From a virus (taxonomy: Duplodnaviria; Caudoviricetes), in IMG/VR virus record IMGVR_UViG_3300025160_000007, positions 1 through 60,672 of that record: a DNA stretch of 60,672 bases; one strand, given 5' to 3'. Position 1 is the first letter of the stretch, and each line of letters starts with the position of its first letter. The position numbers and the translations under genes are program-made. The notes below the pieces were generated by a model. That model saw only the letters and a list, made by a program, of their open reading frames with translations, did not search any database and was not told where the DNA came from. Below are positions 32,574-57,153 of this stretch, one piece after another.

Positions 32574-32678
32574 TATAGTTTGGTTTGAATCGCAGCCGAA
32601 CCAAACTATATAATCATAGTTGTATAGAAGTCTTGTAAATCCGAGCTGCGAAATTTGGATTTATGGGACTTCTTTTTA
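32574..32678 (+). ncRNA. Kissing-loop double hairpin RNA element, copy A
   Basis: Stem 32574-87/32597-610, loop AATCGCAGC; stem 32626-44/32655-73 (Watson-Crick and G-U only), loop GCTGCGAAAT; 7-nt loop complementarity; U-tract. Confidence 0.65.
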
Positions 32679-32697
32679 TATAGGGAGGAAATTTAAA

Positions 32698-33045
32698 ATG
32701 AATATTGAAAAATATGAAGCATTAAAACAAGCTATTCCCAGCAAATATCAAATTAAATTAAGATTTGATAATGGGAAACTGGGCCTTGATGTATTTAAGG
32801 GTAGCAAATTTTTAAAGCCAACACAGCGAACCGGAATGAAAACAACATATTTCAAATTATATGGAATTTATGAAGGGAAATTAAAAGGATATGCAGTCTC
32901 TAAGTATGAATTGTTTTGTTTTATATCTGGTGTTGATGTGGTTCAGCAGGAGGTTAGCCTAGAATATATTAATAAGAATATTGATAAAATCAAAAAATAT
33001 GCTAGGAAGGAATTGATTAAAAATCGATTAAGGGAAACATCTTAA
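32698..33045 (+). CDS. Hypothetical protein
   Basis: AGGGAGG SD before ATG at 32698. Confidence 0.7.
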   Translation: MNIEKYEALKQAIPSKYQIKLRFDNGKLGLDVFKGSKFLKPTQRTGMKTTYFKLYGIYEGKLKGYAVSKYELFCFISGVDVVQQEVSLEYINKNIDKIKKYARKELIKNRLRETS

Positions 33046-33081
33046 GGATTTATTTTAATTGAGAGAAAGAAGGGAGTTATT

Positions 33082-33270
33082 ATGATTGAGTTGGATGAAA
33101 CAAAAAAGAAGTATGACCGAATAGTGGATGAAGTTATCCTTAAGTTAACAATACTATTTACAGGGTTAGGCCTTATTTTTGGGGTATTACTTGATAATTT
33201 AACATTGACAATTGGCAGTTCTTGTTGTTTTTTAGTTATAAATATGTGGGCAATGAAATCTACTAAATAA
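33082..33270 (+). CDS. Small 2-TM protein, possible holin
   Basis: Two hydrophobic helices; next to amidase. Confidence 0.45.
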   Translation: MIELDETKKKYDRIVDEVILKLTILFTGLGLIFGVLLDNLTLTIGSSCCFLVINMWAMKSTK

Positions 33271-33387
33271 GAAAAATAAAAATATCTTTAATAAGTTTTT
33301 TTATAAAAAAGAAACCTAAAGATATTTTTTTTATGTTATAATAAGTATATCAAAACCAATATATCAAACGGTCTTAGCTATTGAAAC

Positions 33388-33431
33388 AAAAATAAGGCAC
33401 CCAACGGACAGCATGGTGCCTTATTTTTTTT
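33388..33431. terminator. Bidirectional terminator
   Basis: AAAAATAAGGCACC...GGTGCCTTATTTTT. Confidence 0.75.
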
Positions 33432-33436
33432 ATGTC

Positions 33437-34153
33437 TTAAGTATTTTTAACTTTTTTAATTATAGGTTTGTAACCTAATTTAGTTAAATCAGCTGCTTGT
33501 TTTTTTGCATTGGCTTCTATCCCAAATGCACCCGTCTGCACCTGCCAAATATAATCGCTCTTTGTCGGGTCTTTTTTCATCTCAATACCAAATAACCCTT
33601 GCAAAATATTATAAGCGAAAAAATCGGCAGTCTTGTCAATATAGTTGGCATCTGTTAATATCTCAAAGTCTTCTGGATTATCAATAAACAATGGTTCAAC
33701 GATAAAAACCGTTGTATCTTTCCCGGATAATCTATGAACTCCATAATGGTCTCTACCTGCTGAATTTAATTTAACTTGAGCTCCCCTGTTTGGAATGCCC
33801 ATTAATTTTGAATATCCTTTACACAAATAACTTGCAAAGTCTTTATTTTTCTGTGCTGTAAAATTACTTGTAAGGATTTCAATCCCTCTCGCTTTTTTAT
33901 TAAAAGCGTTGTGATGCCATTCGAACCAATAAACTGGAGCCATCTTGTCGGCTATTTTACACCTGTCAGATATCTCTATAAAAGTATCTCCGGTTCTTAA
34001 GATTCGTGCATTGGTTCCTAAATAAGGGGAAACTCTCTCATGAACAGCTTTGCATAATTTTAAATTGTAGGTCTTTTCATAACTCTTGTCGCAGGCTATT
34101 GCGCCCACGTCTTTCCCGCCATGGCCCGCACCATTTAATAATATTCTTGACAT
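33437..34153 (-). CDS. N-acetylmuramoyl-L-alanine amidase (Amidase_3) with SPOR-like C-terminus; endolysin
   Basis: AGHGGKDVGA, EK, HHNA, VEPLFIDN; WQVQTGAF...NA. Confidence 0.9.
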   Translation of the reverse strand: MSRILLNGAGHGGKDVGAIACDKSYEKTYNLKLCKAVHERVSPYLGTNARILRTGDTFIEISDRCKIADKMAPVYWFEWHHNAFNKKARGIEILTSNFTAQKNKDFASYLCKGYSKLMGIPNRGAQVKLNSAGRDHYGVHRLSGKDTTVFIVEPLFIDNPEDFEILTDANYIDKTADFFAYNILQGLFGIEMKKDPTKSDYIWQVQTGAFGIEANAKKQAADLTKLGYKPIIKKVKNT

Positions 34154-34293
34154 TTAATTACACTCTCCTTTTTGTTTTTTTTGCATTTCTTACATAAAAT
34201 TTTAGTTATTAATTCGTTTTTATGGTCTTCCTGTAACAATTGTTTATTACAGACAACACAATATACATACTTAACCAACTTAAAACACCTGCC

Positions 34294-35052
34294 CTATAAT
34301 ATTTTTATCTTAAGAACGCCGCCAGCTTTGGTTCCTATTTGGACAGGCTTAACTTCGCCCGTCTCTTTATCAATTGCATTATTATTATGGATTAATAATG
34401 TTTTTTTATAGTTTTCCCAGTCAACTTCTTTTTTGGTTTTTATATATTTATCAGGTACTTTATCAATGTCTTCAGGTTTAATTAAAAAAGGAACTTCCCG
34501 GCTAAAGCTGATTTTAGCTGAAGGAAATTTAAGACTATATTCTGTTTTTGCTTTTGTACACTCGTCAATTCTTATTTGAGGCCTGATATAACCTAACAAA
34601 TCCTCTTCGGCAGCTTTTATATTTTGATTATATTGTTGTATTTTTTGAACATATTCGTCCCTCATTGCTTCAGCAATGTGAATCAATCTTCTATTACTTT
34701 CTTCAAGTGCTTTAAATTCTTGGATTCTTTTTTCAATTAAAAAATCCCTATCAGCCAGCTTTTTTATTTGGCTGACATCTATAAACTTTTTTACTTTTAT
34801 AGTTTCTTCAATTTCCTCAACTTCAACGGCTATCTGCGGAAAATATTCATTTTCTTGGTTCTCAGTCAATCCTTTGTCGTATTCAACTGAATATAATTTG
34901 CCATCTATCTTTAAAATTACTTCACAGCTTTGGCTCCAACGCCTGCTTTCTCCTACTATTGTTTTAACCTGGTCGAAGCTCCATATTGTTTTTTCTACTT
35001 CGTCTGAGGTTAATTCTACACCGTTTTTAATCTTGTCTATTATATTATCCAT
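34294..35052 (-). CDS. Gam-like protein with extra N-terminal domain
   Basis: SLKFPSAKI, IKTKKEVDWENYKK, IDKETGEV; similar to 13963-14523. Confidence 0.6.
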   Translation of the reverse strand: MDNIIDKIKNGVELTSDEVEKTIWSFDQVKTIVGESRRWSQSCEVILKIDGKLYSVEYDKGLTENQENEYFPQIAVEVEEIEETIKVKKFIDVSQIKKLADRDFLIEKRIQEFKALEESNRRLIHIAEAMRDEYVQKIQQYNQNIKAAEEDLLGYIRPQIRIDECTKAKTEYSLKFPSAKISFSREVPFLIKPEDIDKVPDKYIKTKKEVDWENYKKTLLIHNNNAIDKETGEVKPVQIGTKAGGVLKIKIL

Positions 35053-35077
35053 AATTCTATTCTCCTTTTAAGTTATT

Positions 35078-35818
35078 TTAATTGTTTTTCCAGCCCTTTA
35101 AATCTTTTAAAAAAAACTGTTCTTCTTTCATTGCTGCCTTTGGAAGCCCTTTTATTTCCTTTGGAGGTTTTCCTATGCAATAAATATCTTTTTCTGGCAG
35201 CTTATTTTGGCCCTGGTTATCCACATTATCAACAGAGTTATCCACAGGTTTAGATTCCTTAAATAGCAAAACATTATTGAATCCTTCTATTATTTTATCA
35301 GCGGCATTTTGGAATATGTTTGGTTGTCTTGCATTTATTTTTATTTTTGGTTTTTCAATAAAAGGCTCATCATAAATAACCTCTGTCCTTTCATCTGTCT
35401 GTTTTGGAACTATTCTTTTTTGTTTTGGGTTAAAGAAAGATGTCTCTTTGTTGGGTTCGAAGTTGCTGACATTATTATATTTGTTTATATTTAATTGAGA
35501 TTGCATCTCTTCATCAATTACTTTTAATAGTTGAGTATCAAAGGCCTCCCCTTTATGGGCAATTAATATTTTTCTTATTTCTTTTAAAAATTCCAATGTT
35601 GCCTTATTATGCTTATCTATTGTATAAGATGACTGTTCAAAGCTTTGTAGGGCAATTTGATGGCAATTAACCATCTTTGAACAGTCGTCCAGTCTTTCAA
35701 TTATCTTTCGAGTTTTTACGGTTAAAAAGAATATAAAAGCAATTAGGAACACAATGCTCCCAATTACAACAATCGCCGAATTCGCTAAAACAAAACTTAA
35801 AAATTCATATTTATTCAT
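35078..35818 (-). CDS. Hypothetical membrane-anchored protein
   Basis: N-terminal TM helix. Confidence 0.65.
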   Translation of the reverse strand: MNKYEFLSFVLANSAIVVIGSIVFLIAFIFFLTVKTRKIIERLDDCSKMVNCHQIALQSFEQSSYTIDKHNKATLEFLKEIRKILIAHKGEAFDTQLLKVIDEEMQSQLNINKYNNVSNFEPNKETSFFNPKQKRIVPKQTDERTEVIYDEPFIEKPKIKINARQPNIFQNAADKIIEGFNNVLLFKESKPVDNSVDNVDNQGQNKLPEKDIYCIGKPPKEIKGLPKAAMKEEQFFLKDLKGWKNN

Positions 35819-36344
35819 TTCTATTTACCATCCTTTAATTTTTTTTTAAAAGTATTATCGGGCAAATTGCCCGATATTATGTAATTTGCTGCATTTAGAA
35901 GACTAAGCTGGTAATACTTATCGCCGTCCTGAACCGCTAAAGTTAAAGAATAAAGTGTGTCCCCATAGGAGTATACATCTGCTCGTAAATCCTTAAGGCT
36001 TAAAAATGTTTTACTATTTCCGTTTAGTTTTGCATAAATTTTAAACATATACAATTCTCCTTTTATATATATATCTTCTACTTACAATGGTCAAGAATCA
36101 AAGAATCCAAACGATGTAAATACATTATATTATGGGTCTCTTTACAGTTATAATAATCAAGGCAAAATGCTGTAAAATTAAAGTCATTAGGGACTTCTTT
36201 TGTTATTCTGTTACAGTTTACAACTGAAGGGCTATATAGAAAACATGGACTGTAAAAAGCTAAAAACTTTTTCCCCTCAGATTCTTCAATTCGAAACGAT
36301 ACGATTTTAAAACTAGTCTGCTCCTCTTCGTTAATAATATACAA

Positions 36345-36650
36345 TTATAAAACAACTCCCTTCATATATTCTTTAACTCCATGCCCTAATTTACAATTAA
36401 TATCAGAGCATGCAAAGTTTCCTTCTGTTAATATAATTTGTTTTTTGCAAATAGGACATAATTTATCAATAGGATGAAAAATTATGTTTTCCAATTTTTC
36501 AAAGGGATAATTATACCCTCTGATATAAACTTTTAGCGCGTCCTCTATTATCTTACTAATAGGTAGGTCTGCTTCAATCTTATTTATTGCTTTTACCTGC
36601 AGGTAAATATCTCTGTCTATTTTTACATTCATACTTACTTTATTATCCAT
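36345..36650 (-). CDS. Ribbon-helix-helix-like protein with C-terminal Zn ribbon
   Basis: VSMNVKIDRDIY...ISKIIEDALKVYI; CPIC...CSDINC. Confidence 0.55.
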   Translation of the reverse strand: MDNKVSMNVKIDRDIYLQVKAINKIEADLPISKIIEDALKVYIRGYNYPFEKLENIIFHPIDKLCPICKKQIILTEGNFACSDINCKLGHGVKEYMKGVVL

Positions 36651-36700
36651 GCTGGACCACCCTCTCCTGAATGTTTTTATTAACCGATTAATTTATTCTT

Positions 36701-36775
36701 ATTATACATCAAGTTTTTAAAATAGTCAAATACATTTAAAAAGTGGTTGACTTCTTTTGTAGGAAGAACTATAAT
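36701..36775. promoter_or_regulatory. Back-to-back sigmaA promoters
   Basis: Minus strand TTGACT(36729)-17-TATAAT(36706); plus strand TTGACT(36747)-17-TATAAT(36770). Confidence 0.8.
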
Positions 36776-36784
36776 ATAAGAAGG

Positions 36785-36833
36785 TGAGACGTGAACGGTG
36801 GTTCTTAACCCGGTTCGAGGCCGGGCGTTTCAA
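36785..36833 (+). ncRNA. Truncated tRNA-like structure in the recT leader
   Basis: 7-bp acceptor-like stem TGAGACG/CGTTTCA, T-arm CCCGG-TTCGAGG-CCGGG, single 4-bp inner hairpin. Confidence 0.55.
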
Positions 36834-36868
36834 TAGGGTAAAAGCCCTTATATTAAGGAGGTTATATA

Positions 36869-37897
36869 ATGCCAGATTATAAAAACGAGGTTATAAAAGT
36901 ACAAACAGACAACGGAGACATCGTTTTGTCGAATCAAATTGTTAGGGAAACCCTGGCAATAGGTAATAACATCACGGACAGCGAAATATACAACTTTATG
37001 ATGTTATGTAAATATAGAAACTTGAATCCCTTTCTAAAGGAGGCATATATTGTTAAGTTTAACGATACTGCTCAGATACTTGTAGGGAAGGATGCCATGA
37101 TAAAAAGGCTTCATAACAATCCGGCCTGTGAAGGTTGGGAGGCTGGAATTATTGCATGGGATAAAGAAAACTCAAAGATAATTGAAAGGGAAGGTTCTTT
37201 CTTTTTAAAGGATGAAGAGCTGGTTGGAGCATATTGTATTATCCGCAGGAGGGGTTGGGTAAATCCATATAAATGGACGATTAACCTTAGAGACTACCTG
37301 AGAACACATAAAAATAAGGCTGGTCAAATTGTGCCGATGGGCAATTGGGGAATAATGCCTGGCGTTATGTTAACAAAATGTGCAATTGTAGCAACAATCC
37401 GGAATGTCTTCCCAGAGGATGTTGGCGGGTGTTATACAGAGGATGAAGTTGGTATTCCATCGGATGCAATTGATGTGACGCCAGACACTGATTCGCCTAA
37501 GCAGCCATCTAAACAAAAATCGGAGCCTGTAAAGACAACTATTGAACAAAATCAAATCGCCCAGCTTTGTATCACGGCTGCTGGGAATTCTAAAACTGCA
37601 GGATATAATCCGGAAGACTTACTTAAATTTGCAATGGAATCGTTGGTTCAAGGGAAAATATTAGAAAGCACATCAAAACGTGAGATTCCAAAGGATAAAT
37701 TTAAAACTGTATTAGATTATGTAAAAAAATTAGCTGAAAATAAACTAAAGGCTCATTTAAAAAAAGAATCTGATAAAAAGTTGAAAGAAGAACCTGCTGT
37801 CCCAGAAGGTCTGCCAATTGAGGACGCTAAACACGCACAGCCTGCCGGTAAAAAAGAAGATAGTAAAATGGAGGGAGATTCTAAAGTTGGAAATTAG
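36869..37897 (+). CDS. bet: RecT/Bet single-strand annealing protein
   Basis: FMMLCKYRNLNPFLKEAYIVKF, LVGAYC, WGIMPGVMLTKCA...IRNVFPEDVGGCYTEDE. Confidence 0.85.
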   Translation: MPDYKNEVIKVQTDNGDIVLSNQIVRETLAIGNNITDSEIYNFMMLCKYRNLNPFLKEAYIVKFNDTAQILVGKDAMIKRLHNNPACEGWEAGIIAWDKENSKIIEREGSFFLKDEELVGAYCIIRRRGWVNPYKWTINLRDYLRTHKNKAGQIVPMGNWGIMPGVMLTKCAIVATIRNVFPEDVGGCYTEDEVGIPSDAIDVTPDTDSPKQPSKQKSEPVKTTIEQNQIAQLCITAAGNSKTAGYNPEDLLKFAMESLVQGKILESTSKREIPKDKFKTVLDYVKKLAENKLKAHLKKESDKKLKEEPAVPEGLPIEDAKHAQPAGKKEDSKMEGDSKVGN

Positions 37898-40192: not shown

Positions 40193-40195
40193 GGC

Positions 40196-43115: not shown

Positions 43116-43484
43116 ATGATAGGCATGGATATTAAAAATTTTAATCTAATAAAAAATATCAAAGATAATAAAGTTTTATCAATAAGTGTGGGAAGTATAT
43201 TATTAACCTTAATAGTATTAGGATTTATGGGGTATTTAGACGACTTGATTGCCGGAATTTTTGCCGTTATAGTCATTTTATTGTTAGGTCTATTTGGAGC
43301 CTTAGCAACATTAATCCCCATAGTTTTTGGCCTTGGATTATATTGTTTACCAACAATTGTCGCCTTAATTAGGAAGCATGCCAATAAAAGCCCGATAATA
43401 CTTGTGAACCTATTATTAGGCTGGACGCTTATTGGATGGGCTGTGGCCCTAATTTGGGCCTTCACGGATAACGCTGCCGACTAG
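43116..43484 (+). CDS. Superinfection immunity (Imm-like) membrane protein
   Basis: LYCLPTIVALIRKH.N...ILVNLLLGWTLIGWAVALIWA. Confidence 0.85.
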   Translation: MIGMDIKNFNLIKNIKDNKVLSISVGSILLTLIVLGFMGYLDDLIAGIFAVIVILLLGLFGALATLIPIVFGLGLYCLPTIVALIRKHANKSPIILVNLLLGWTLIGWAVALIWAFTDNAAD

Positions 43485-45508
43485 ATTAGAATAGAAAAAG
43501 AAAGGGAGTTTACAATGGACGCAGGTGAAATTATAAGAATGATTAATACAAAAGCATCTTTATGCCTTGAGAAAGCAAAAATATTTTCAAAAGGGGAACC
43601 AGTATCAGATGAAGACCAGGCTCGATTAAGTGAAATTAAAGATATCCTGGAGGTAATAAATAGCCAATTAGAAGCAGAATTAACTCAACTAAAAACAAAG
43701 AATGAAAGGATAAAAGAATTATGATTAACAAAAATAAAGCTCGAGCCATAATGCTATTAACCCATTATTTTAGAACTACATTCGAACAGGCAGGATTAAA
43801 GTTTGATAATGATAACGAGGCAGAGATTGCCGAAATTATCAATTGTATTTTTGACACAATCATTGAACAAAGTTAAGGGGAAAGGTGATGAAAGACCATG
43901 TTAAATTATATAAATATAGCTGTGATAATAATAGGGATAATTGGAGTGGTACTTTCGATAAAAGCAAGCAAAAAGAAGTAATGAGTTTTATTGCAGGCAG
44001 CTCTTTTTTTATAGGCTTTATTATAAGAATTATTATATATTGTCTTGGATTTATGATAGGTATTTTAAAAGCTATGGAGCTGGGCTGCTGGCAATTCTTT
44101 TTAATTGGAATGATTGCCTTTGGATTAGGATTAACAACATCAATAAAAGACCTTATTTTTTTTGAAATATTTAAACTTGAAAGGAGGGAATAATTATGGG
44201 TTGGTGTGCGATTAATTTTTGCGATAATATTTGGAACCTGTTTGTAAAGTATATTCCAAAAAAAGAAAGAAAAGAGATAGCCTTGGAACTAATAAAAATG
44301 TTTGAAGCAAGAGATATGGATGATGGATATTGTGAGTCATCTGTTGAAAAGGCTGCTGGGATAAAGTATGAAGATGGTTAAAAACTAGGGGAAAAGGATT
44401 ATGAATATTAAAAAATTCTATTTATTGAATTCTCTGAAAGATTTGTATGACATAGCTGAAGATGGAACGGTAACAAATAAAAAGAACGGAAAGATACTTA
44501 AATATTCCACACATAAGGGCCAGCGATTCGTTAGTTTATATTTAACTGGCAAAAGCTATCAATACACCGAAAGGCAATTGAAGGACTTCTTAAGCGGGGA
44601 ATACAATAAAAAAAATAAATGCAAAATTTGTAATTGTGTCACAAATAACGACTGGTGTAATATGTGCCAGTTAAAATTGCAAAATGTAAAAAACATTATA
44701 TTGAAAACTAGGGAAGGGAAGAGATTATATTGACAAATGCAAATAAAAAAAGGTACAGGCGAGGAGACCCGATTATTTATAAGGGCCTGCCTACTCAACT
44801 TGGATGCTCGGCTAATATAATATATTATTGTTTAACTAATAAAAGAGGCGTTTATAGCTTTACAAATAGAAGTTTAAATGAAACTGAATGCAAAAATACA
44901 AAAAGGATATATTTAAAAGCAGTCAAGAATGTTAGAAAGGAATATCCAGACATTAGATTTGATGATATTAAAATTATAAGAGAAATGGTTAAAATAAAAA
45001 ATAACGAAGGTTTAAAAAGTATCGCTGATGATTTGTCCTAATTGAAAAAAAGAGGAGGTTTTATAATGAGTTATGATTTTTATAATTTTAGTGCAGGGCC
45101 CGAGAAGGAAGAGAATACTATAAAAAATATAAATACTACCACCAAGGAAGGGAAATATTTGTTAGCTGCTTTGGCAATATTAACAACAAGTACATTTGTA
45201 TTTAAGGGCGATGAGATAAACGGCGGCGGGTTAACACCTGATTCAATTTTAAAAAAACTAGAAATAATTTCTAATGAGATGTTTGGAACTGGAGGAGAAT
45301 AGATGAATAAATTAATTACAACAATATATCTCCATCGGGACAAAGATGAAAACTCAGAATTATCCGAACTGGCGGTGGCTCAAGGAATAAAAAGGGAAGA
45401 CCTTTTATACGTTGGATATGAAATAGAAATGAAAATCGAAATAACCGAATCTCACATTAAAATATTAGAAATTGACGGGGTGCCAATTGAAAAGGATGTG
45501 TTTATATA

Positions 45509-49413: not shown

Positions 49414-49475
49414 CAACAATAAAAAAAATTATGAAAGGGGAAGCCTCTAATGATTTATTTTAGTGGCGTTATTTT

Positions 49476-50819
49476 ATGGCCGAAAAAAAGAATAAAAAAG
49501 ACTTTATCAAAGTAAAATGGAATCCGAATTATGTTATGGTTACTTATACACATAATTCGGAATCCGTAACGGAACCATTGAATGAGTATTTTGATAAGTT
49601 TAAAGAAGGGAAAAAACCAAAGATAACAAAGTATGATGTTATGAAAGTTATTGAAAATATAAAATGCCTTCTATTTCATTATAATATTGTTGCTAGATTT
49701 AATGTTTTAAAAGCATCTTATGAAATATTTGTTAATAATGGAGTTTATAAGATGGAGGATTGTCTTATAAATATTCAAGATAAGGCCACAAAACATAATT
49801 TTAAAATAACTAAAGAAAGGCTAATGGATTCATTAATCTATATAGCTAAAGGGAAGAGATACAATCCGGTTAAAGATTATTTAATCGGATGCCATAAATA
49901 TTTTTTAAAAAAACCAGACCTTGCTATTTTTAAAAAAATTGCAGATACAATAGAAAGCCCATGTCAGTTAAAAGAAAAATATATCGGCAGGTTTTTACTT
50001 CAGATGGTTCACTTAGTTTGTTCTAAAGATGACGACCAAACAGCCTCTCAATATTTATTAGTATTACAAGGGAAACAAGGTCTTGGAAAGACGACCTGGC
50101 TTCAGAACTTATTACCTAAAAAATTTAGGGCTCAGTATTTTTTAGGTGGCCGAGTTTTAGACCTTTCTAATAAAGACCATGTAATGGAAACAATAACAAA
50201 CTGGTTATGTGAAATGGGAGAGATATCTTCAACATTTAAAAAGTCAGACCAGGAAGCTCTTAAAAACTTTATTACATCATTTAAAGATAAGTTTAGACTT
50301 CCATATGCAAAGGAACCTATTGAACAAAAAAGAAGAACAACTTTATGTGGAACAACAAATGATAGGGAATATTTAAAAGATTTAACAGGAACCAGACGCT
50401 TTTTAACTCTCAATTGCACGGGAATTAACTTTAATCATAATATTGATTTAGATATGCTCTGGGGATATATGTATAGTTTTTATCTTCAAGATAGACCATA
50501 TTGGTTTGAAAATGATGAGATAGAAGAAATAATGACCGAAAACAACAAATTCCTTTCTAAGTCCGAGCTGATTTTGACTATAGAAGAATACTTCGATTTA
50601 TTCCCCAAGGAGCCTGATGGCGATGCGAATGAAGAGGCTGGTAAATGGATGAAGGCCGTGGATATTTACGATGTCTTAAAACCTTTTATGGCAGACCTTC
50701 AATTAAATAAATTTAATGTAAACAAGTTTTCTATTAGTAGGGAATTAAAGAAGTTAAACATGAAAATGAGTTATGACAATCATAAAAATGTAACGATGTT
50801 TTATGTTAAAAGGCTTTAA
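49476..50819 (+). CDS. VapE/VirE-family P-loop ATPase (replicative helicase-like)
   Basis: YNPVKDYL, QGKQGLGKTT, FRLPY, GTTNDREYLKDLTGTRRF. Confidence 0.9.
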   Translation: MAEKKNKKDFIKVKWNPNYVMVTYTHNSESVTEPLNEYFDKFKEGKKPKITKYDVMKVIENIKCLLFHYNIVARFNVLKASYEIFVNNGVYKMEDCLINIQDKATKHNFKITKERLMDSLIYIAKGKRYNPVKDYLIGCHKYFLKKPDLAIFKKIADTIESPCQLKEKYIGRFLLQMVHLVCSKDDDQTASQYLLVLQGKQGLGKTTWLQNLLPKKFRAQYFLGGRVLDLSNKDHVMETITNWLCEMGEISSTFKKSDQEALKNFITSFKDKFRLPYAKEPIEQKRRTTLCGTTNDREYLKDLTGTRRFLTLNCTGINFNHNIDLDMLWGYMYSFYLQDRPYWFENDEIEEIMTENNKFLSKSELILTIEEYFDLFPKEPDGDANEEAGKWMKAVDIYDVLKPFMADLQLNKFNVNKFSISRELKKLNMKMSYDNHKNVTMFYVKRL

Positions 50820-50849
50820 AGCCTTTTTTTTTGTGTTTTTTTATTTAGC

Positions 50850-51050
<201 letters not shown>

Positions 51051-51815
51051 ATATCTATAACTGACATTGAGGGAATTACTTGCTAAAAAAATGAACCGAT
51101 TGGTTCTTAACTTCCTAGCAGATAAAAGATAACGCTTGTATTATTATAATCCATTTTATTGTATTTTATGTAAGATTTTTAAATTTTCTTCCGAGCAGAT
51201 TTAAAAAACGTTAAAAATTGAGATTCTTGAATAGCCCTAAAAATGCGGCTTCCATTAAATTCTTAGGATTTTTGTGAAGTTTTATTATAAAAAAAGCGAT
51301 TTTGTGAATTCTACTTTTATAATAAAAACAATCCGCAACCCTTTAATATTGTGGCTTAGAGGTTATTTTGCGAGGAAGTGAGAAAAAGCTAAAAAGTGAT
51401 GGTTTTTGGTCAAAAACGAACTATTAGCTCTTTAGGGTATTACCGAAAAAACCAACAAAAAAAAACACTTAAATACTTTTAATTCTTGTATTTGTAAATA
51501 ATTATATTGTTATGACAAGAAAAGCTAATAATATGAGTAATACCGTGAATCAGCAGAATTAACAAAAAGGGTGTTTTTTATCAAAAGCGGCACTTTTTAT
51601 TAAATAATAAATTCCTGATAAAAGTTTGATGGTTTACTTTTAACCGAATATATTTTACAATGTCTTCAAAGAATAAATTTTATTTGATTAGTAGATTAGT
51701 AAAGAGTTAGTTAAGCAGGCGAGGTATTATAATATAGATTTTTCTTTCTTTTAGCTCCCTTCAGTAGAATATAAGATAAGTTGTTAGGTTGTATAAGTTT
51801 GTTAATTTAATTTTT

Positions 51816-51854
51816 GCACAAAAAAGGGCCCTTCGATAAGGCCCTTTTTTGTGC
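51816..51854. terminator. Strong hairpin/terminator
   Basis: GCACAAAAAAGGGCC...GGCCCTTTTTTGTGC. Confidence 0.75.
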
Positions 51855-52277
51855 GGTTAGAATTATGAACAATTTCTTGCAAACACTTGAAAGTTAACAA
51901 ATAGTTCAGATGATGTTTTAATTTTAACACAAAACATCAAAATAAACTATTGCATTATATTTGCTGACGAGGTATAATGTGAGCATAGTAATTAATTATT
52001 ATTTTTGAAGGGAGACAAAAATGAAAAAGTTATTTTGCGAAGTTTGTGAAGACCAAATGAATTCAATTTTTGATTACGACTCAGACACTTTAAACCCAAA
52101 GACCATTGAAGTACATCAATGTACAAACAAAGACTGCAAACAACACAAAATTTTAAAACACTACTGGATAAACAAAAATCGGGCGATTTTCTTAGGAACC
52201 ACTGGGTCGGCAGAGCCAAAGTTTTAAATAAACCGGGAGGCATTTCCGGTTTATAATAAAGGGAGGGAGAGCTTAAG

Positions 52278-52592
52278 ATGGAGAAGGTTAAACCTTTAGA
52301 CCATAATAAAAGGGTATTTGATATGATTGGCCTATTAAGAAAGAACGGAAGGATGAAGGCCCATGAACTAGCAACAGCCATGGGTTTTAAGAACACCCGG
52401 TCAATTAACAAGTATAAGAACCAGATTGAAAAGATGGGTTTACAAGTTCAGACATTCGGCGGATTCTATGGAGGTTATGAGCTGGTGCAACCAAACAGGC
52501 TGACAGAATATGAATTAAATTTAGTTAAATCTTATTTACCCGCTAACATAACAGACAAGATTAAAAACTTAAATGATGGTGTTTTACTTTAA
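52278..52592 (+). CDS. Winged HTH protein
   Basis: MKAHELATAMG...RSINKYKNQIEKMG...GFYGGYEL. Confidence 0.75.
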   Translation: MEKVKPLDHNKRVFDMIGLLRKNGRMKAHELATAMGFKNTRSINKYKNQIEKMGLQVQTFGGFYGGYELVQPNRLTEYELNLVKSYLPANITDKIKNLNDGVLL

Positions 52593-52945
52593 AATAATAG
52601 GGCTTAAGACGTTTAAAATTTTAATAGTAGTTTTATAGCCTTTTTAGATTCAAAGTGCCGGAAGGATAAACCTGAGCGATATTTTAAATATTATAAGGGG
52701 ATTTTAAGAGGAGGATAACAAATGGATGATAAAAAAAGTAAGAAAGAAATTATAGTTAAGCATAAGCATAATTTTAATTTATTTGGTGTTGTTTTTTTAA
52801 TATTATTAACAACAAAGCTTTTAGGAGTTGCAGATATATCTTGGATATGGGTGTTTTCGCCCTTTATAATTCTATTGGGCCTGATTATATTATTCATAGG
52901 TCTCGCGATTGTAATTGAAATATTAAAGGCATTAGAAGGACTGGA

Positions 52946-53223
52946 ATAAATGCGGGAGAGTATTTAAAAGATAAAAATTGCAGTATTTGCGGAATTTCAA
53001 ATGATGAGCATTTAAAAAAATATAATCAAAGGCTTCATATTCATCATAAAAAAAATACAGGAAGACACTACATAGAGAACGGCAAAAAACCTATCCATGA
53101 TGATTTAGCTATTCTCTGTGTCTCTTGTCATACATCGCATGCCGTAAAAAACAAACAGCATTCTAGTTTTGATAATTCAAAAGCCTTATTAAAAGGCTGG
53201 GAAACGAGGAGGAGTAAAAATGA
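52946..53223 (+). pseudogene. HNH endonuclease-like frame without a canonical start
   Basis: CSIC...LHIHH...LAILCVSCH; in-frame TGA at 52916 and no ATG/GTG/TTG start. Confidence 0.55.
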
Positions 53224-54863
53224 AATTCGAAAAAGTTAAACTAAAAGACTTGATTTTTTCAACTTATAATCCAAGGAAAAAACTAACACCGAAAGACGAC
53301 GAATATAAAAAAATAAAAGCAAGCATTAATGAGTTTGGATATGTTGACCCGATTATTGTTAATTCAAATAACGTAATTGTGGGTGGATTCCAGCGCGGAC
53401 AGGTACTGAAAGAACTGGGATATAAGGAAATAGACATTGTTAGGATTGACATTTCTCCAGAGAAAGAAAAGGCTCTTAATATTGCTCTAAACAAAATAGA
53501 TTGTGGCTATCAAATAAAGGCCCAAATTATCTGGGCCAAACAACACTTCGCGTTGTCGCGTGGCAACTTTAACTGGCAGCATGAACCTTGTCAGCCGGCT
53601 GGAACTATTATATCAACACCAAGTGGGCAGATTCCAATTGAAAAATTAAAAGATGGAGATAGAGTTATAACATATAATAGCTATTCATCTTCAATTATTG
53701 GCAAAAGAAAGGGCTTTAAAATTAAAACAAGTAAAAGATTTTATAATGGTGATATGTTTAATATTTTTGTAGGGAACAAGAATACTAAAACAACAGACAA
53801 CCATAAATTTACAACTAGATTTTCAAATGATTGTGATTCTAAATATGGTATCTATTTAATGAAAAAAGGCGAATGGTGGAGGATTGGAATAACTAAATTG
53901 TTTAATTCTCGTGGTTTTGGCTTAACTGTAAGATTAGGAAACGAAAAAGCAGATGCGGCATGGTTGTTAAAAATTTGCAATAAAAAAAACGAGGCAGAAG
54001 TTTATGAACACATGTTATCTTGCAAGTATGGAATCCCAACAACTATATGGGAACTGGCAAGACCAAGAAAAGGCATTCCAGAAAATTTAAATTGGAGAAG
54101 CGAAGAACAAATAAAGTGGATTTATTCAATGTTGGATTTAGATTTAATGTTTTTAAATGTTTTAAAAATGTTGAAAGATTTTAATAAAAGAATTGAATTT
54201 CCTATGGTAACAAAAGAAGAAACGCAATATAAACCATTTGGAAGAAATAAAACTAAATTAATTAATGCATGTAATTTATTTGAGGATATCATGTGCATAC
54301 CAGTTCCTCATAATAGTGGGGATTCATTTGATTGGATTAAAATTTCAAAAATAAAAATTTCTAAATTTGAAGATTTTGTCTATTCTCTTGATGTTGATAA
54401 ATATGAGCATTATATTGCAGATGGAATTGTTACTCATAACTGTTTATATGTTGTAAAGAATAAAAAGAAACATAACTGGCAGGGAGTTAACAATGCTTCG
54501 ACCATCTGGAATATAAAAAATAACAATAGTTTTGGAAATTCAGATAAGGAACAAACATATGGGCATGGAACACAAAAGCCCATCGAATGTATGTTAAAGC
54601 CTATAAACTATAATTCATGTCCGGGCCAGGCAGTCTATGACCCATTTTTAGGTTCGGGAACTTCTTTAATTGCATCGGAACAGTCGGGCCGAATTTGTTA
54701 TGGCATGGAGATTGATCCCATCTATTGTGATGTAATCTTACAAAGATATATTGATTTTGTAAACAACGATAGTTTATTCTTAATTGAAAATAATAAAAAA
54801 GTTAATCTAAGGGATATCCCTAAATATAAAAAAATAGTTGGTGATGGAAATGCCAAAAAGTAA
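53220..54863 (+). CDS. ParB-like domain fused to a partial DNA methyltransferase, with intein
   Basis: YNPRK...FGYVDPIIV..GGFQR; IIWAK, WQHEP, HGTQKP, DPFLGSGT; no DPPY motif. Confidence 0.85.
   Translation: MKFEKVKLKDLIFSTYNPRKKLTPKDDEYKKIKASINEFGYVDPIIVNSNNVIVGGFQRGQVLKELGYKEIDIVRIDISPEKEKALNIALNKIDCGYQIKAQIIWAKQHFALSRGNFNWQHEPCQPAGTIISTPSGQIPIEKLKDGDRVITYNSYSSSIIGKRKGFKIKTSKRFYNGDMFNIFVGNKNTKTTDNHKFTTRFSNDCDSKYGIYLMKKGEWWRIGITKLFNSRGFGLTVRLGNEKADAAWLLKICNKKNEAEVYEHMLSCKYGIPTTIWELARPRKGIPENLNWRSEEQIKWIYSMLDLDLMFLNVLKMLKDFNKRIEFPMVTKEETQYKPFGRNKTKLINACNLFEDIMCIPVPHNSGDSFDWIKISKIKISKFEDFVYSLDVDKYEHYIADGIVTHNCLYVVKNKKKHNWQGVNNASTIWNIKNNNSFGNSDKEQTYGHGTQKPIECMLKPINYNSCPGQAVYDPFLGSGTSLIASEQSGRICYGMEIDPIYCDVILQRYIDFVNNDSLFLIENNKKVNLRDIPKYKKIVGDGNAKK
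53589..54440 (+). mobile_element. Intein (284 aa) with GIY-YIG-like central domain
   Basis: Starts CQPAGT...IPIEKLKDGDRV; TTDNHKF; YGIYLM...WRIG; ends VYSLDV...YIADGIVTHN then Cys+1. Confidence 0.9.
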
Positions 54864-55422
54864 ATATCCTACGCATATCGAACCAAATTTAAAATTAATA
54901 ACAAGTTGGAGAGAAGCTGGAAAAACGGAAGAGCAAATCGCGGAGAAATTAAAAGTTGCCTGTAGTACTTTAAGGGAACATAAAAACATGTATCCGGCAT
55001 TGATGGCGGCTCTTAGCACCTCAAAGGAAAAATTAGTTGCTAATTTAAAGAAGAGCCTATGGGAAGAGGCTCTTGGTTATGAATATACCGAGGTTCAAGA
55101 ATCGGCAGAAATAATAACAGGCAAAGATGAGGACGATAATCCAAACAAAAAACCTAAAAAGTTACGAAGAACAAAAATAACTAAAAAATTTAGAGGAGTT
55201 CCTAATCTGTTAATTTTTGCATTATGCAACTTAGCACCAGATGAATTTAAAAGAATTGATAAAGAAGCCATGAAAGAGATTGAAGATAAAATAGCCGAAG
55301 ACCGAAGACAGGCGCAAAGTTACACGGATGAAGCTATTCGCAGGGCCTATAATAGCTTATATGAGGACGTGACGAAAACAATTAAAGAGAAAAAGGCGGC
55401 GGCCGATAATGATTCAACTTGA
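54838..55422 (+). CDS. Terminase small subunit (HTH type)
   Basis: GKTEEQIAEKLKVACSTL, ALGYEYTE, IFALCN; overlaps the large subunit start. Confidence 0.7.
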   Translation: MVMEMPKSKYPTHIEPNLKLITSWREAGKTEEQIAEKLKVACSTLREHKNMYPALMAALSTSKEKLVANLKKSLWEEALGYEYTEVQESAEIITGKDEDDNPNKKPKKLRRTKITKKFRGVPNLLIFALCNLAPDEFKRIDKEAMKEIEDKIAEDRRQAQSYTDEAIRRAYNSLYEDVTKTIKEKKAAADNDST

Positions 55423-56782
55423 GCGAGCGTTAAATGTTAGGGACGTCGGGTATACCTTCGAAAAGATAGCACCAAAAACAAAAGAGCATCTCGCGGTTTA
55501 TTGCTCTGTTGTTTTAAATAATAGGTTCCCTCATCCAGCCTATTGCCCTGACCATGATTCCCCTTTGGATGCAATTTGGGCAGCCTATGCGGAAATTGAA
55601 GATTTTAGTATTTGGTATGCCATGAGAGGCTCGGGGAAAACATATGACCTCTCTATTTTGGCATGGCTTGAAAGTCTTTTTAAACCGCAGTGTGGAACGA
55701 CGGTTCTAGGAGGCTCGCTTGAACAAAGTACAAAAGCCGTGGGCTATTTAGATTATTTATGGAGAATGCCAGGCGTCCCGCATGAGATGTTAATAAATGG
55801 GAGTGTTGCTGGAAGAGGCTTTAAACTTAATAATGGCTCATGGGTTCAGGCTTTGGCAGCCTCTCCAAAATCTGTCAGAGGCCCTCATCCACAAAAGTTG
55901 CGTTTAGACGAACTCGACGAAATGGACAGGGTTATTTATGACGCGGCTCTGGGCCAGCCAAAGTCGAACCATGGAATAAAGGATAATGTAGTTATATCTT
56001 CAACGCTTCATCATGCCTTTGGATTAATGACAGAAGTTATAGATGAACGGGAAAAAATCGGAGCCCGCCTTTACAAATGGTGTGTTGAAGAGGTTCGGGA
56101 ACCTCGCGGATTTTGGACAAATGATGAAATTGGAAGAAAACTAAAACAATTAACAACGGCCATGTGGGATTCGGAGTACTTATTAAAAAGACCAATGGTT
56201 GGAGACACTGTCTTTGATTTTGAGTCTGTTGATAGGGCATATAGAAGAGGATTTAATATCTTATTTGAAAAATATCCGGCCGAAGGATGTATTGACTGGG
56301 GATATACGTGCACAGTTTTACACGTTATCCAGGATTTTAAAGAATATATAAATGTCCCTGAGTCTTATTCATGGGAATATACCGAGTTAACAGAAAGATG
56401 TAAATTAATTGTTGATATTTGCATTGAAAAAAATATAAGAGTTATATATTGTGACTCTAATCCAAAGGATAGCCACATGACCTTAAGAAAGATAATAAAA
56501 AAGAAAAGGGCTCCAGTTACCGTCATTCCCATTGCTTTTAATGTATGGAAAGACATCGCGATTAATGTTGTTAGATTCTATCTTGAAAGGGATTTAATGA
56601 ACATAAGAGACAAGGTATTCCAAGACAAGATGAAAAAGTACCATTATAAAAACGTTGATTTAGAGATAATAGATAAGGTTGATGACCATTATCCCGATGC
56701 TTTAATTGCTTGGGGAGCATCTAGATGGAGAATCCTTGGAGACATAACTCCACCAAGGAATGCCGAAGAGTTAAACGGTTAA
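55409..56782 (+). CDS. terL: Terminase large subunit
   Basis: RGSGKT Walker A, RG...LDE Walker B, SST, IDWG, DDHYPDAL. Confidence 0.9.
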   Translation: MIQLERALNVRDVGYTFEKIAPKTKEHLAVYCSVVLNNRFPHPAYCPDHDSPLDAIWAAYAEIEDFSIWYAMRGSGKTYDLSILAWLESLFKPQCGTTVLGGSLEQSTKAVGYLDYLWRMPGVPHEMLINGSVAGRGFKLNNGSWVQALAASPKSVRGPHPQKLRLDELDEMDRVIYDAALGQPKSNHGIKDNVVISSTLHHAFGLMTEVIDEREKIGARLYKWCVEEVREPRGFWTNDEIGRKLKQLTTAMWDSEYLLKRPMVGDTVFDFESVDRAYRRGFNILFEKYPAEGCIDWGYTCTVLHVIQDFKEYINVPESYSWEYTELTERCKLIVDICIEKNIRVIYCDSNPKDSHMTLRKIIKKKRAPVTVIPIAFNVWKDIAINVVRFYLERDLMNIRDKVFQDKMKKYHYKNVDLEIIDKVDDHYPDALIAWGASRWRILGDITPPRNAEELNG

Positions 56783-56808
56783 GGGAAACATCAAGAGTTT
56801 ATCCTTAA

Positions 56809-56930
56809 TTGATTATTATCTTTTTTGTGTTATAATTAACTAAGTTGTTTTTTTGATATATTCATGATTTATTTTGTTGATTGTTTACTTGGGGAAGTGG
56901 CGCGTGACACCATACACGCGCCATTCCTTT
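56809..56930 (+). ncRNA. Candidate small RNA unit (promoter, ~50-nt U-rich segment, GC hairpin)
   Basis: TTGATT-16-(TG)TATAAT; hairpin 56892-56929. Confidence 0.45.
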
Positions 56931-56965
56931 GTTATAAAGGGTTTATGTATATGATAAAAAAAACC

Positions 56966-56994
56966 TTGACGGATAAAAAGTATTTTGTTATAAT
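56966..56994 (+). promoter_or_regulatory. sigmaA promoter with extended -10
   Basis: TTGACG-17-TATAAT with TG. Confidence 0.85.
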
Positions 56995-57001
56995 CGTTCT
57001 T

Positions 57002-57153
57002 GCATGGTAGTTTTTCAAGTTTTAGAACCTTCAACAAATTTGTTACGCCGCACTTTTGAAATGCATTCCGGCCATTTCAAAAGTGCGGTGGGTAACTGCA
57101 TAAAGACCTATAAATATTCGAGCCGGAAATCTAGGATATTTATAGGTCTTTTT
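57002..57153 (+). ncRNA. Candidate antisense RNA: bipartite 5' segment plus kissing-loop double hairpin (copy B)
   Basis: CATGGTAGT + ACCTTCAACAAATTT match 3879-3901 and 46411-46434; stems 57048-63/57073-88 and 57102-19/57134-51; loops TTCCGGC/GCCGGAA. Confidence 0.65.

What the first reader, a model, noticed from the sequence alone, without database searches (positions are those of the whole stretch)
32574..57153. Two copies of a kissing-loop double-hairpin RNA motif with compensatory changes (32574-32678 and 57048-57153)
Seen: both have a 14-16 bp hairpin with a 9-nt loop, a 13-15 nt linker, a ~19-bp hairpin with a ~10-nt loop, a U-tract, then an SD and gene start. The last 7 nt of loop 1 are complementary to the first 7 nt of loop 2: TCGCAGC/GCTGCGA in copy A and TTCCGGC/GCCGGAA in copy B. 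That is three compensatory pair changes while the stem sequences are unrelated. The imperfect pairs in copy A are all G-U on the + strand, which favours an RNA structure. Inference: a conserved pseudoknotted ncRNA, such as an sRNA scaffold, a terminator/antiterminator switch or an oligomerising RNA. I do not recognise the family.
Basis: seen in the sequence. Interest (0 to 1): 0.85.

Follow-up and report, generated by a model that had tools for sequence, protein, structure and literature searches.

The report
Kissing-loop terminator leader RNA of phages
Two accessory genes of this phage are each preceded by a short folded RNA in which the tip of a first hairpin base-pairs with the tip of a transcription-stop hairpin; related phages keep this pairing through matched mutations, so it is a real, uncatalogued RNA element that probably gates gene expression.

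Summary
The window is a complete 60.7-kb phage record. Both sites have the same layout: upstream terminator, sigma-70-type promoter, 17-18-bp hairpin with a 9-nt loop, 10-12-nt linker, 18-20-bp hairpin with a U-tract, SD and gene. A 7-bp loop-loop complement sits in the same register in both copies.

I found 24 distinct members of the family in uncultivated phage and metagenome contigs, with 12 different loop-pair "types". On a covariance-model alignment that does not model the loop-loop helix, that helix is 97.3% paired, against 73% when shuffled and 29-51% when slid. Five of its 8 pairs change on both sides. Both stems also covary. G-U outnumbers A-C 72 to 12, which marks a + strand RNA.

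There is no Rfam match and no GenBank phage match. Downstream genes are diverse accessory or early genes. In 18 of 24 members the -10 box ends 3-9 nt before hairpin 1.

My best reading is a portable promoter-leader cassette whose intrinsic terminator is gated by the kissing helix. The logic resembles the guanidine-IV riboswitch, but I see no sign of a ligand. Action in trans or as a dimer (P4 CI, IsrK or pRNA-like) remains open. Function is untested.

Earlier notes of this scan describe the same design on other phage DNA.

The parts
32410..32446 (+). Terminator-like hairpin closing the upstream gene (32072-32398). It insulates cassette A from tail-gene transcription.
   Evidence: 15 pairs, followed by a T-rich tail.
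32448..32475 (+). Promoter of cassette A. The -35 is TTGCTT (32448-32453). After a 16-nt spacer comes TGT plus the -10 TATAAT (32470-32475). The predicted start is near 32483, about 87 nt before H1.
   Evidence: Read. The -35 matches only 3 of 6, so the scan did not list it. That an extended -10 can compensate is recalled knowledge.
32571..32613 (+). Copy A hairpin 1: a 17-bp stem with a 9-nt loop (32588-32596). The loop letters 32590-32596 form the kissing strand.
   Evidence: covariation.
32626..32677 (+). Copy A hairpin 2, an intrinsic-terminator-like hairpin. The stem is 32626-32644 with 32655-32673, and the loop is 32645-32654. The kissing strand is 32645-32651. The U run is 32673-32677.
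   Evidence: 20 pairs, then a T-rich tail; H2 -23.1 kcal/mol; kiss duplex -12.0.
32683..33045 (+). SD GGGAGG (32683-32688) and a 115-aa ORF (32698-33045) of unknown family. By position the ORF can be transcribed only through hairpin 2.
   Evidence: (no Pfam or PHROG family).
56896..56925 (+). Terminator-like hairpin after the large terminase gene (55409-56782).
   Evidence: 11 pairs, 7 of them G-C.
56966..56994 (+). Promoter of cassette B. TTGACG, a 17-nt spacer, then TG-extended TATAAT (11 of 12). The predicted start is near 57002, about 44 nt before H1.
57046..57090 (+). Copy B hairpin 1: an 18-bp stem with a 9-nt loop (57064-57072). The kissing strand is 57066-57072. The G-U pair at 57047/57089 is G-C in a relative.
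   Evidence: L002; the variant 57089 T>C.
57102..57153 (+). Copy B hairpin 2, terminator-like. It has an 18-bp stem and a loop at 57120-57133. The kissing strand is 57122-57128. The U run is 57149-57153.
   Evidence: H2 -20.2 kcal/mol; kiss duplex -11.9.
57167..57665 (+). SD GGAG (57167-57170) and a NUDIX hydrolase gene (57180-57665). The gene is inserted between the large terminase and the portal (57874-59367).
   Evidence: (PF00293, E 7e-15).

Best explanation
Each copy is a portable promoter-leader cassette of a phage RNA family. A sigma-70-type promoter drives an RNA that starts with a 17-18-bp hairpin (H1). In most members H1 sits at the very 5' end; in the two window copies it follows a 44-87-nt leader. 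H1 is followed by an 18-21-bp A/U-rich hairpin with a U run (H2, an intrinsic terminator). H2 ends 10-25 nt before the SD of an accessory or early gene.

The last 7-8 letters of the 9-nt H1 loop form a Watson-Crick helix with the first 7-8 letters of the H2 loop. Each cassette uses its own letters.

Most likely working:
- The H2 loop emerges from RNA polymerase before the 3' arm of H2.
- At that moment it can pair with the H1 loop, using the still-unpaired H2 5' arm as a tether.
- A fully paired loop-loop helix stacked between two long stems cannot coexist with a complete H2 across a 6-17-nt linker.

This is the logic proposed for the guanidine-IV riboswitch. Here there is no conserved ligand pocket, and the loop letters are freely exchangeable.

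Shown: the family, the three helices, the RNA strand, and the promoter/terminator/SD layout. Inferred: that H2 terminates, that the kiss gates it, and in which direction.
For: Structure and covariation:
- There are 24 distinct members. They were aligned by a covariance model that contains only H1 and H2.
- H1 is 96.1% paired, and 16 of its 17 pairs change on both sides.
- H2 is 95.4% paired, and 15 of its 19 pairs change on both sides.
- The kiss is 97.3% paired, and 5 of its 8 pairs change on both sides. It scores 0 of 500 shuffles on percentage paired, on cells with double changes and on covariation score. It scores 31 of 500 on the number of pairs with a double change, and 3 of 500 on further pair types. 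Slid controls give 29-51% paired.

Natural control:
- I searched a pattern that fixes conserved loop letters and leaves 3 kissing positions free.
- Of the 42 loci it newly fetched, 6 fold as the element, and all 6 are 3 of 3 complementary.
- The other 36 are G+C-rich chance matches, and none is 3 of 3 complementary.

RNA strand: G-U 72 against A-C 12 over the three helices.

Layout:
- In 18 of 24 members a -10 hexamer ends 3-9 nt before H1.
- 21 of 24 have an SD plus start codon after H2.
- There are 4-7 U in the 8 letters after H2.
- An H2 without H1 sits at a gene end in G006, as an ordinary terminator would.

Energies: kiss duplex -11.5 to -13.7 kcal/mol in 24 of 24 members, median H2 -20.4.

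Precedent: passages of PMC11611296 state that in guanidine-IV a kissing loop hinders completion of the terminator stem. They also state that elongation of the terminator stem shortens the linker and sterically hinders the kiss.

No partner protein: no ORF is shared by all element-bearing genomes. No known antiterminator family appears among the 40 window proteins scanned.
Against: - There is no expression or termination data of any kind.
- The steric conflict is my own estimate from helix rise and linker length. It is not a model or a measurement.
- The kiss is so strong that it should form without any signal. If it blocks the terminator, it is unclear what ever turns the terminator on. If it instead stabilises H2, the direction is the opposite of what I propose.
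- The U runs are short and partly paired with the A-rich base of H2, so termination may be weak.
- The family is shallow: all members are alignable and many share stem halves. The shuffle control therefore overstates independence.
- D and E were first picked up by a scan that required at least 5 complementary loop letters.
Confidence: 0.55

Rival explanations
1. The element works between molecules. Transcripts that stop at H2 give a stable RNA of about 105-195 nt with both loops free. Alternatively, the free RNA could bind the loops of nascent copies of the same leader and set their termination. That would be an antisense-like, dose-dependent control without an antisense gene. The loop types would then act as addresses or immunity groups.
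For: - A fully paired 7-8-bp kiss between 9-10-nt loops should stack between the stems. That gives a rod of about 45 bp, which a 6-17-nt linker cannot close within one molecule (linker lengths; the geometry is my inference). Two antiparallel rods joined by the linkers would fit.
- Co-resident cassettes are orthogonal. Cognate duplexes are -11.9 to -13.7 kcal/mol. Cross pairs are -2.1/-5.9 (A and B), -2.1/-2.5 (C and D) and -8.0/-6.9 (the two copies in G007).
- Loops and stems are mosaic. Seven pairs of members have H1 stems at least 90% identical but different loops. Eleven pairs have the same loop but diverged stems. L246 has the flanks of copy A but another loop type.
- Precedents read here: P4 CI RNA pairs with seqA and seqC of its own leader and causes premature termination; short IsrK acts on its own read-through transcript (passage and abstract of PMC4825925). 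pRNA multimerises through kissing between identical molecules (abstract of PMC4201828).
Against: - Nearly every member is followed at once by an SD and a gene, as a cis leader would be.
- With about 12 types, two random cassettes would differ anyway, so orthogonality is weak evidence.
- Dimerisation would consume the free loops needed for action on nascent RNA.
- No longer complementary third partner of the loops was seen in the window, only bare 7-mers.
- There are no data on RNA abundance.
Confidence: 0.25
2. It is a passive expression module. H1 is only a 5' stabiliser, and H2 is only a leaky terminator that sets a fixed low read-through. The kiss merely compacts or protects the RNA and carries no regulation.
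For: - H1 lies at the predicted 5' end in 18 of 24 members.
- Downstream genes are unrelated to one another, so no common signal is evident.
- No partner protein was found.
Against: - Maintaining 7-8 covarying pairs in 12 types is a strong constraint for a merely protective contact.
- A 9-nt loop in 24 of 24 members and conserved register suggest a precise architecture.
Confidence: 0.1
3. It is a ligand-sensing riboswitch of the guanidine-IV kind, with an unknown ligand bound at the kissing interface.
For: - It has the same two-hairpin, kissing-loop, terminator architecture.
- A few letters next to the kiss are conserved: A at loop-1 position 1, and GA before the loop-2 kissing strand.
Against: - The mepA/guanidine-IV model is not among the matches up to E = 10.
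- The kissing letters themselves vary in 12 types, which leaves little room for a conserved pocket.
- Downstream genes share no pathway.
- The kiss duplex is strong without any ligand.
Confidence: 0.04
4. It is a DNA-level feature. The two palindromes would be protein-binding operators, or paired recombination sites whose spacers must match.
For: - Each hairpin is an inverted repeat around an 8-10-bp spacer, as in lox/FRT-type sites (a recalled comparison).
- H1 overlaps the start of transcription.
- One half-site of H1 is conserved in many members.
Against: - G-U 72 against A-C 12 shows selection on one RNA strand.
- The arms of H1 and H2 are unrelated to each other, so one recombinase could not bind both.
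- The U run, the SD and the fixed promoter spacing fit an RNA leader.
- No recombinase or repressor co-occurs with the element.
Confidence: 0.03

Closest known systems
Guanidine-IV riboswitch (mepA motif)
   Same: Two hairpins in a 5' leader, the second being the intrinsic terminator. A kissing loop between their tips competes with completion of the terminator stem (passages of PMC11611296).
   Different: - There is no match to the Rfam model.
- The kiss here is 7-8 bp, strong, and variable in sequence (12 types), not a conserved ligand pocket.
- The genes are phage accessory genes, not guanidine exporters.
- No ligand is indicated.
P4 CI RNA with seqA/seqC (and, recalled, P1/P7 c4 RNA); Gifsy-1 IsrK
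   Same: - A promoter-proximal, untranslated leader carries a segment complementary to another segment of the same transcript. The pairing decides premature termination or activation of the downstream genes (PMC4825925).
- Heteroimmune relatives differ by matched changes (recalled for P1/P7).
- Some members here precede Rha/antirepressor-like genes.
   Different: - No C4 or IsrK model match.
- Both partners here are hairpin loops only about 55 nt apart.
- The target is the loop of the terminator itself.
- No processing signal is known.
- The element occurs in front of many unrelated genes.
phi29-family prohead RNA (pRNA)
   Same: A phage RNA whose two loops are complementary to each other and covary between phages. 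Copy B lies between the terminase and portal genes.
   Different: - No pRNA model match.
- There are two separate hairpins, not a three-way junction.
- The phage has small and large terminase subunits.
- There are two copies per genome in front of unrelated genes.
- H2 is a terminator followed by an SD.
Lambda PR'-6S RNA-tR' unit, and RNA antiterminators (HK022 put, Tn916 canT)
   Same: A strong promoter followed closely by a terminator, so that downstream genes need read-through. For put, two stem-loops lie right after the promoter (recalled). canT acts in cis as RNA (PMC11658703).
   Different: - No Q-like or other antiterminator family was found among the 40 proteins scanned.
- put and canT suppress distant terminators and contain none themselves.
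- canT needs about 340-450 nt.
- None of these has covarying complementary loops.
Countertranscript-driven attenuators of pT181/pIP501-type plasmids
   Same: Kissing between hairpin loops decides whether a leader terminator forms. Orthogonal loop variants exist. (Recalled; the abstract of PMC4878617 appeared in the listing.)
   Different: There the partner is an antisense RNA from the opposite strand, and a pre-emptor helix alternates with the terminator. Here both loops are on the sense RNA, the G-U bias disfavours a folded minus-strand RNA, and I saw no alternative helix on comparing the stem arms by eye.

Membership tests
Guanidine-IV riboswitch (mepA motif) | Match to the curated covariance model (conserved loops and stems). 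| tested here: not met
   Not among the matches up to E = 10 on either region. No gathering-score match in the window.
Guanidine-IV riboswitch (mepA motif) | Two hairpins whose loops kiss, the second being an intrinsic terminator. | tested here: met
   The architecture of the known class was taken from PMC11611296.
Guanidine-IV riboswitch (mepA motif) | Controls guanidine export or detoxification genes, and responds to guanidine. | tested here: not met
   Downstream genes are NUDIX, an unknown 115-aa ORF, PseB/PseC-like, ParB-like, Rha-like and ERCC4-like (by motif) genes. Ligand response is not testable here.
P4 CI / P1-P7 c4 / IsrK leader antisense RNAs (Rfam C4, IsrK) | Match to the curated models. 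| tested here: not met
   no such match.
P4 CI / P1-P7 c4 / IsrK leader antisense RNAs (Rfam C4, IsrK) | A leader segment complementary to another segment of the same transcript, with matched changes between relatives. | tested here: met
   (12 loop-pair types).
P4 CI / P1-P7 c4 / IsrK leader antisense RNAs (Rfam C4, IsrK) | The small RNA is released by processing or termination and acts in trans. | not testable with these tools
   No RNA data available. See Tried and rejected.
phi29-type pRNA | Match to the pRNA model; a three-way junction with a prohead-binding domain. | tested here: not met
   No match. The folds show two independent hairpins.
phi29-type pRNA | Two mutually complementary loops that covary. 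| tested here: met
phi29-type pRNA | Occurs in phi29-like phages that package with pRNA. | tested here: not met
   The phage has a small terminase (PHROG 309), a TerL-like 457-aa ORF and a portal-like ORF. Relatives were found with the TerL-like ORF.
Q-type late unit (PR'-6S-tR') | A promoter-proximal terminator before the controlled genes. | tested here: met
Q-type late unit (PR'-6S-tR') | A phage antiterminator protein that co-occurs with the unit. | tested here: inconclusive
   No ORF is shared by all element-bearing genomes. No antiterminator family appears among the 40 window proteins scanned. About half of the ORFs were not scanned.
Intrinsic (Rho-independent) terminator | A stable hairpin directly followed by a U run. 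| tested here: met
   One search lists copy A. H2 is -17.4 to -26.0 kcal/mol, with 4-7 U in the next 8 letters, in 24 of 24 members. Actual termination was not tested.

The most novel reading that the evidence does not exclude
The leaders are address-coded, self-recognising RNAs. The short terminated RNA exposes two loops that recognise only copies of itself. This would give each cassette a private, dose-dependent switch without any antisense gene or protein. The 12 or more loop types would act as immunity or incompatibility groups between co-infecting phages. They would also be a natural library of orthogonal RNA-RNA addresses.
Probability: 0.3. Interest if true: 0.85.

Novelty: new variant of a known kind. 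Interest (0 to 1): 0.7.

Why it matters
If the kiss gates the terminator, this is a compact RNA-only switch of about 105 nt. Its specificity can be rewritten by changing 3-5 loop letters, and nature already supplies at least 12 mutually orthogonal versions. That is directly useful for synthetic RNA regulators.

It would also add a new way in which phages time or dose accessory and early genes: glycan genes, NUDIX, ParB-like nucleases and Rha/antirepressor-like genes. If it acts between molecules, it would be a rare natural case of RNA self-recognition, alongside pRNA and the large ROOL, GOLLD and OLE assemblies (abstract of PMC12286853).

Earlier notes of this scan (unchecked) describe the same design in unrelated phage groups. 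That suggests a widespread principle that is absent from Rfam 15.

Tried and rejected
- **Rfam.** No gathering-score match in the window. In relaxed scans of 32440-32720 and 56950-57200, the best matches were bglG-cis-reg at 21 bits against a threshold of 80, and STnc361 at 24.7 against 80. I take these as chance.
- **GenBank phages, blastn.** No match for either cassette, nor for a typical family member.
- **Relatives through the downstream proteins.** None for the 115-aa ORF or for NUDIX.
- **Relatives through TerL.** 13 viral loci. Only the three at 93% identity carry copy B. TerL in species-representative genomes gave none.
- **H2 pattern in species-representative genomes.** None is the element by my check.
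- **Covariance model R1 in 5 genomes and in 151 sampled Clostridia genomes.** No match. Few candidates per genome were scored, and the host is unknown, so this shows nothing.
- **RNA evidence.** No RNA holder is listed for 56700-57900.
- **DNA contigs of four runs laid on that stretch.** Among the differences listed (101 more are not shown), only 57089 T>C lies inside the element, while several lie in each flank. The table is truncated, so I give this no weight.
- **Third partner for the loops.** In the window the four 7-mers occur 1-4 further times each, with no longer complementarity around them by eye.
- **Partner protein.** ORFs of the window were compared with 8 related or element-bearing phage records. 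None is present in all element-bearing records and absent from the element-free G001. Pfam and PHROGs on 40 window proteins show no Q, RinA, ArpU, NusG-like, Hfq or ProQ family.
- **Alternative helices between H1 and H2 arms.** None was seen on comparing the stem arms by eye; I ran no call for this.
- **Literature searches.** None of the listed titles or abstracts describes this family. I saw listings and abstracts only, plus passages of PMC11658703, PMC4825925 and PMC11611296. Supplements were not opened.
- **Type III toxin-antitoxin and retron readings.** I considered these and dropped them. The downstream genes are diverse and neither toxins nor reverse transcriptases.
- **MAFFT alignment A2.** It misplaced gaps in copy B and in some loops. 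I used it only to build the model; the counts come from the model-based alignment A4.

Full report
**What the window is.** The window is a complete virus record of 60,672 bases with direct terminal repeats and 33% G+C. It encodes:
- a small terminase (PHROG 309);
- a TerL-like 457-aa ORF at 55409-56782 and a portal-like ORF at 57874-59367 (TerL relatives);
- RecT, an ERCC4 nuclease and a Cro/C1-type HTH protein;
- an amidase with a SPOR domain;
- a RecD-like helicase and a VapE-type primase/helicase.

Rfam finds nothing at gathering score, and there are no tRNAs.

**Checking the observation.** Both sites are as described.
- Copy A: H1 is 32571-32613 (17 bp, loop 32588-32596). H2 is 32626-32673, followed by the U run 32673-32677, the SD at 32683-32688 and the ATG at 32698.
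- Copy B: H1 is 57046-57090 (18 bp, loop 57064-57072). H2 is 57102-57151, followed by the U run 57149-57153, the SD at 57167-57170 and the ATG at 57180.
- The 7-mers TCGCAGC/GCTGCGA and TTCCGGC/GCCGGAA are exact. They lie in the same register: letters 3-9 of a 9-nt loop, and the letters right after a conserved GA in loop 2.
- Three of the seven pairs differ between the copies, each on both sides.

Both regions fold far better than shuffles: z is -5.8 and -7.9, and 0 of 200 shuffles folds as well in either case. My own scan listed 37 adjacent hairpin pairs in the window. Only A and B (and B read on the other strand) have 6 or more complementary loop letters; all others have 5 or fewer.

Each site is preceded by a terminator-like hairpin that closes the upstream gene, and then by a promoter. 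So each is a self-contained cassette. Cassette A sits after the tail genes, before a 115-aa ORF with no family. Cassette B sits between terminase and portal, before a NUDIX hydrolase.

**Finding relatives.**
- TerL gave 13 viral loci. The three at 93% identity carry copy B unchanged, except for one G-U to G-C change in L002. The more distant ones lack the NUDIX cassette.
- I fetched whole related records and scanned them for adjacent hairpins with complementary loops. This found three further copies with the same build. C has the loops of copy A, compensatory stem changes, and lies before a gene whose N-terminus I read as PseB-like. D has an 8-bp pair TTGAGGGC/GCCCTCAA. E has TGGCCTC/GAGGCCA on an H1 stem almost identical to that of A.
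- Pattern scans that fix only one hairpin then retrieved more. The H1-stem pattern gave 31 viral stretches. The H2 pattern gave 28. Model R1 later confirmed 19 full elements and one H2 without H1 among these loci.
- A third pattern fixes conserved loop letters and leaves three kissing positions free. It gave 15 viral and 39 metagenome stretches.

In all I have 24 distinct members with 12 loop-1 types. None was found in GenBank phages. None was among 120 pattern hits in species-representative genomes.

**Is the pairing real?** I built a covariance model from H1 and H2 only and realigned the 24 members to it. The loop-loop helix is therefore not fitted by the alignment.

| Helix | Cells paired | Pairs changed on both sides |
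|---|---|---|
| H1 | 96.1% | 16 of 17 |
| H2 | 95.4% | 15 of 19 |
| Loop-loop | 97.3% | 5 of 8 (2 invariant) |

For the loop-loop helix alone:
- 97.3% paired, against 73.0% in shuffles;
- 40 cells with double changes, against 9.1;
- covariation score 0.617, against 0.128;
- 0 of 500 shuffles reach the observed value for these three measures, 31 of 500 for the number of pairs with a double change, and 3 of 500 for further pair types;
- sliding the partner by 1-3 columns gives 29-51% paired.

The third pattern gives a natural control. It newly fetched 42 loci. Six fold as the element, and all six have 3 of 3 free positions complementary. Three of those six are the same sequence, and four of the six went into the model. 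The other 36 loci are G+C-rich chance matches, and none has 3 of 3.

Non-Watson-Crick cells are G-U on the + strand 72 times and A-C 12 times. So the selected structure is an RNA on the strand of the downstream gene.

Two caveats apply. The members are related and share stem halves, so the shuffles overstate independence. D and E were first found by a scan that asked for complementary loops.

**Anatomy of the family.**
- Loop 1 is 9 nt in 24 of 24 members, and the linker is 6-17 nt.
- The kiss duplex is -11.5 to -13.7 kcal/mol. Median H1 is -17.3 and median H2 is -20.4 kcal/mol. There are 4-7 U in the 8 letters after H2.
- In 18 of 24 members a -10 hexamer ends 3-9 nt before H1, so H1 is the 5' end of the transcript. 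In L075 the distance is 17 nt. In A, B, L002 and L246 it is 52-95 nt. For L040 no promoter was found.
- 21 of 24 have an SD and a start codon soon after H2.
- By my reading of their N-termini, with no family search run on them, the downstream genes are ParB-like, Rha/antirepressor-like, PseB-like, a PseC-like aminotransferase, an ERCC4-like nuclease and unknowns. NUDIX is the one confirmed by Pfam.
- No ORF is shared by all element-bearing genomes and missing from the element-free relative G001.
- In G006 an H2 of one type stands alone at a gene end, and no matching loop 1 exists in that genome. H2 alone thus looks like an ordinary terminator.

**How it most likely works.** Three things are shown: the three helices, the RNA strand and the layout. 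That H2 terminates is inferred from its form.

For the role of the kiss I rely on geometry and on one precedent. When 7-8 of 9-10 loop letters pair, the loop-loop helix should stack between the stems. This is recalled from solved kissing complexes and was not tested here. H1, the kiss and H2 would then form a rod of about 45 bp, roughly 125 Å long. A 6-17-nt linker cannot close that within one molecule.

Before the 3' arm of H2 is made, however, the H2 loop can reach the H1 loop on the unpaired 5' arm. [quoted passage not shown]

This is the mechanism proposed for the guanidine-IV riboswitch. There the kissing loop hinders completion of the terminator stem, and the growing stem shortens the linker and hinders the kiss (passages of PMC11611296).

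I therefore rate a kiss-gated attenuator as most likely (0.55). The kiss probably favours read-through. The direction and the input signal remain open, because the kiss is strong enough to form unaided.

**The main rival (0.25)** is action between molecules: a closed homodimer, or the terminated RNA acting on nascent leaders.
- The same geometry favours it.
- Co-resident cassettes are orthogonal. Cognate duplexes are about -12 to -14 kcal/mol, and cross pairs are -2 to -8.
- Loops and stems are mosaic, and L246 looks like an allele of copy A with another loop type.
- Known systems behave this way: P4 CI RNA and IsrK (PMC4825925) and pRNA (abstract of PMC4201828).

Passive, riboswitch and DNA-level readings are less likely, for the reasons given under the rivals.

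**Comparison with the known, and novelty.** The element fails the model-match test for guanidine-IV, C4, IsrK, pRNA and plasmid countertranscripts. It shares their logic in part. My literature searches listed no description of this family.

Earlier notes of this scan report the same design on other phage DNA. One of them, e1-3291353, describes two-hairpin leaders before two Rha paralogs, with a copy at 45330-45455 and at least 12 types. That fits the record I call G007, with copies at 45347-45448 and 19594-19715. If so, the same family has been reported before from another genome. One note, e1-5925297, gave me the lead to guanidine-IV, which I then read up. These notes are unchecked and add no independent evidence.

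I class the element as a new variant of a known kind, namely kissing-loop control of a leader terminator. Function is untested.

Noticed in passing
window 32546-32578 and 32698-32720: Just before H1 of copy A there is a 10-codon mini-ORF whose first five codons nearly repeat the start of the downstream 115-aa gene (read). L246, which has the same flanks but another loop type, keeps a similar ATG stretch. This may be a footprint of how the cassette was inserted, or a leader peptide.
   Followed up: no
window 32585-32614: The promoter scan finds a 10-of-12 sigma-70-like match inside H1: TTGAAT, 18 nt, TATAAT. It is formed by the end of the 5' arm plus the loop start, and by the end of the 3' arm. 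By eye, a similar TTGATT ... TATAAA arrangement recurs in some members, though not in B or D. It is probably a by-product of A/T-rich palindromes.
   Followed up: no
window 50819-52000: A non-coding stretch of about 1.2 kb after the primase/helicase gene carries several long hairpins, for example 51814-51856 (17 bp, G+C-rich) and 51280-51327 on the minus strand. It also holds one extra copy of the A-type loop-2 7-mer, at 50848. It is a possible replication origin or another RNA.
   Followed up: no
L257:15343-15439 (G006:35173-35224): An H2-type hairpin (loop type of L064) stands without H1 at the end of a gene, in a 40.9-kb phage of 40% G+C. The same phage also carries one complete element of another type at G006:38339-38441. 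No matching loop 1 exists in that genome.
   Followed up: partly
L009:4150-4326: A phage with TerL 71% identical has a different arrangement at the place of cassette B: two successive promoter-like boxes, each followed by a short imperfect hairpin. It was cut by the contig end.
   Followed up: no
window 57139-57174 in runs X10, X12, X19: Environmental contigs match only the 3' half of H2 and the U run, and then continue into other sequence. In X19 a different gene start follows the element (loose ends). This is consistent with the cassette being moved in front of different genes.
   Followed up: no
window 14616-15347: This 243-aa ORF is 62% identical to ORFs in G006 and G007, two phages that otherwise share almost nothing with the window except the RNA element and a distant small terminase.
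   Followed up: no
window 43116-43484 and 53220-54863: The first is a superinfection-immunity protein (PF14373). I did not examine it.
   Followed up: no
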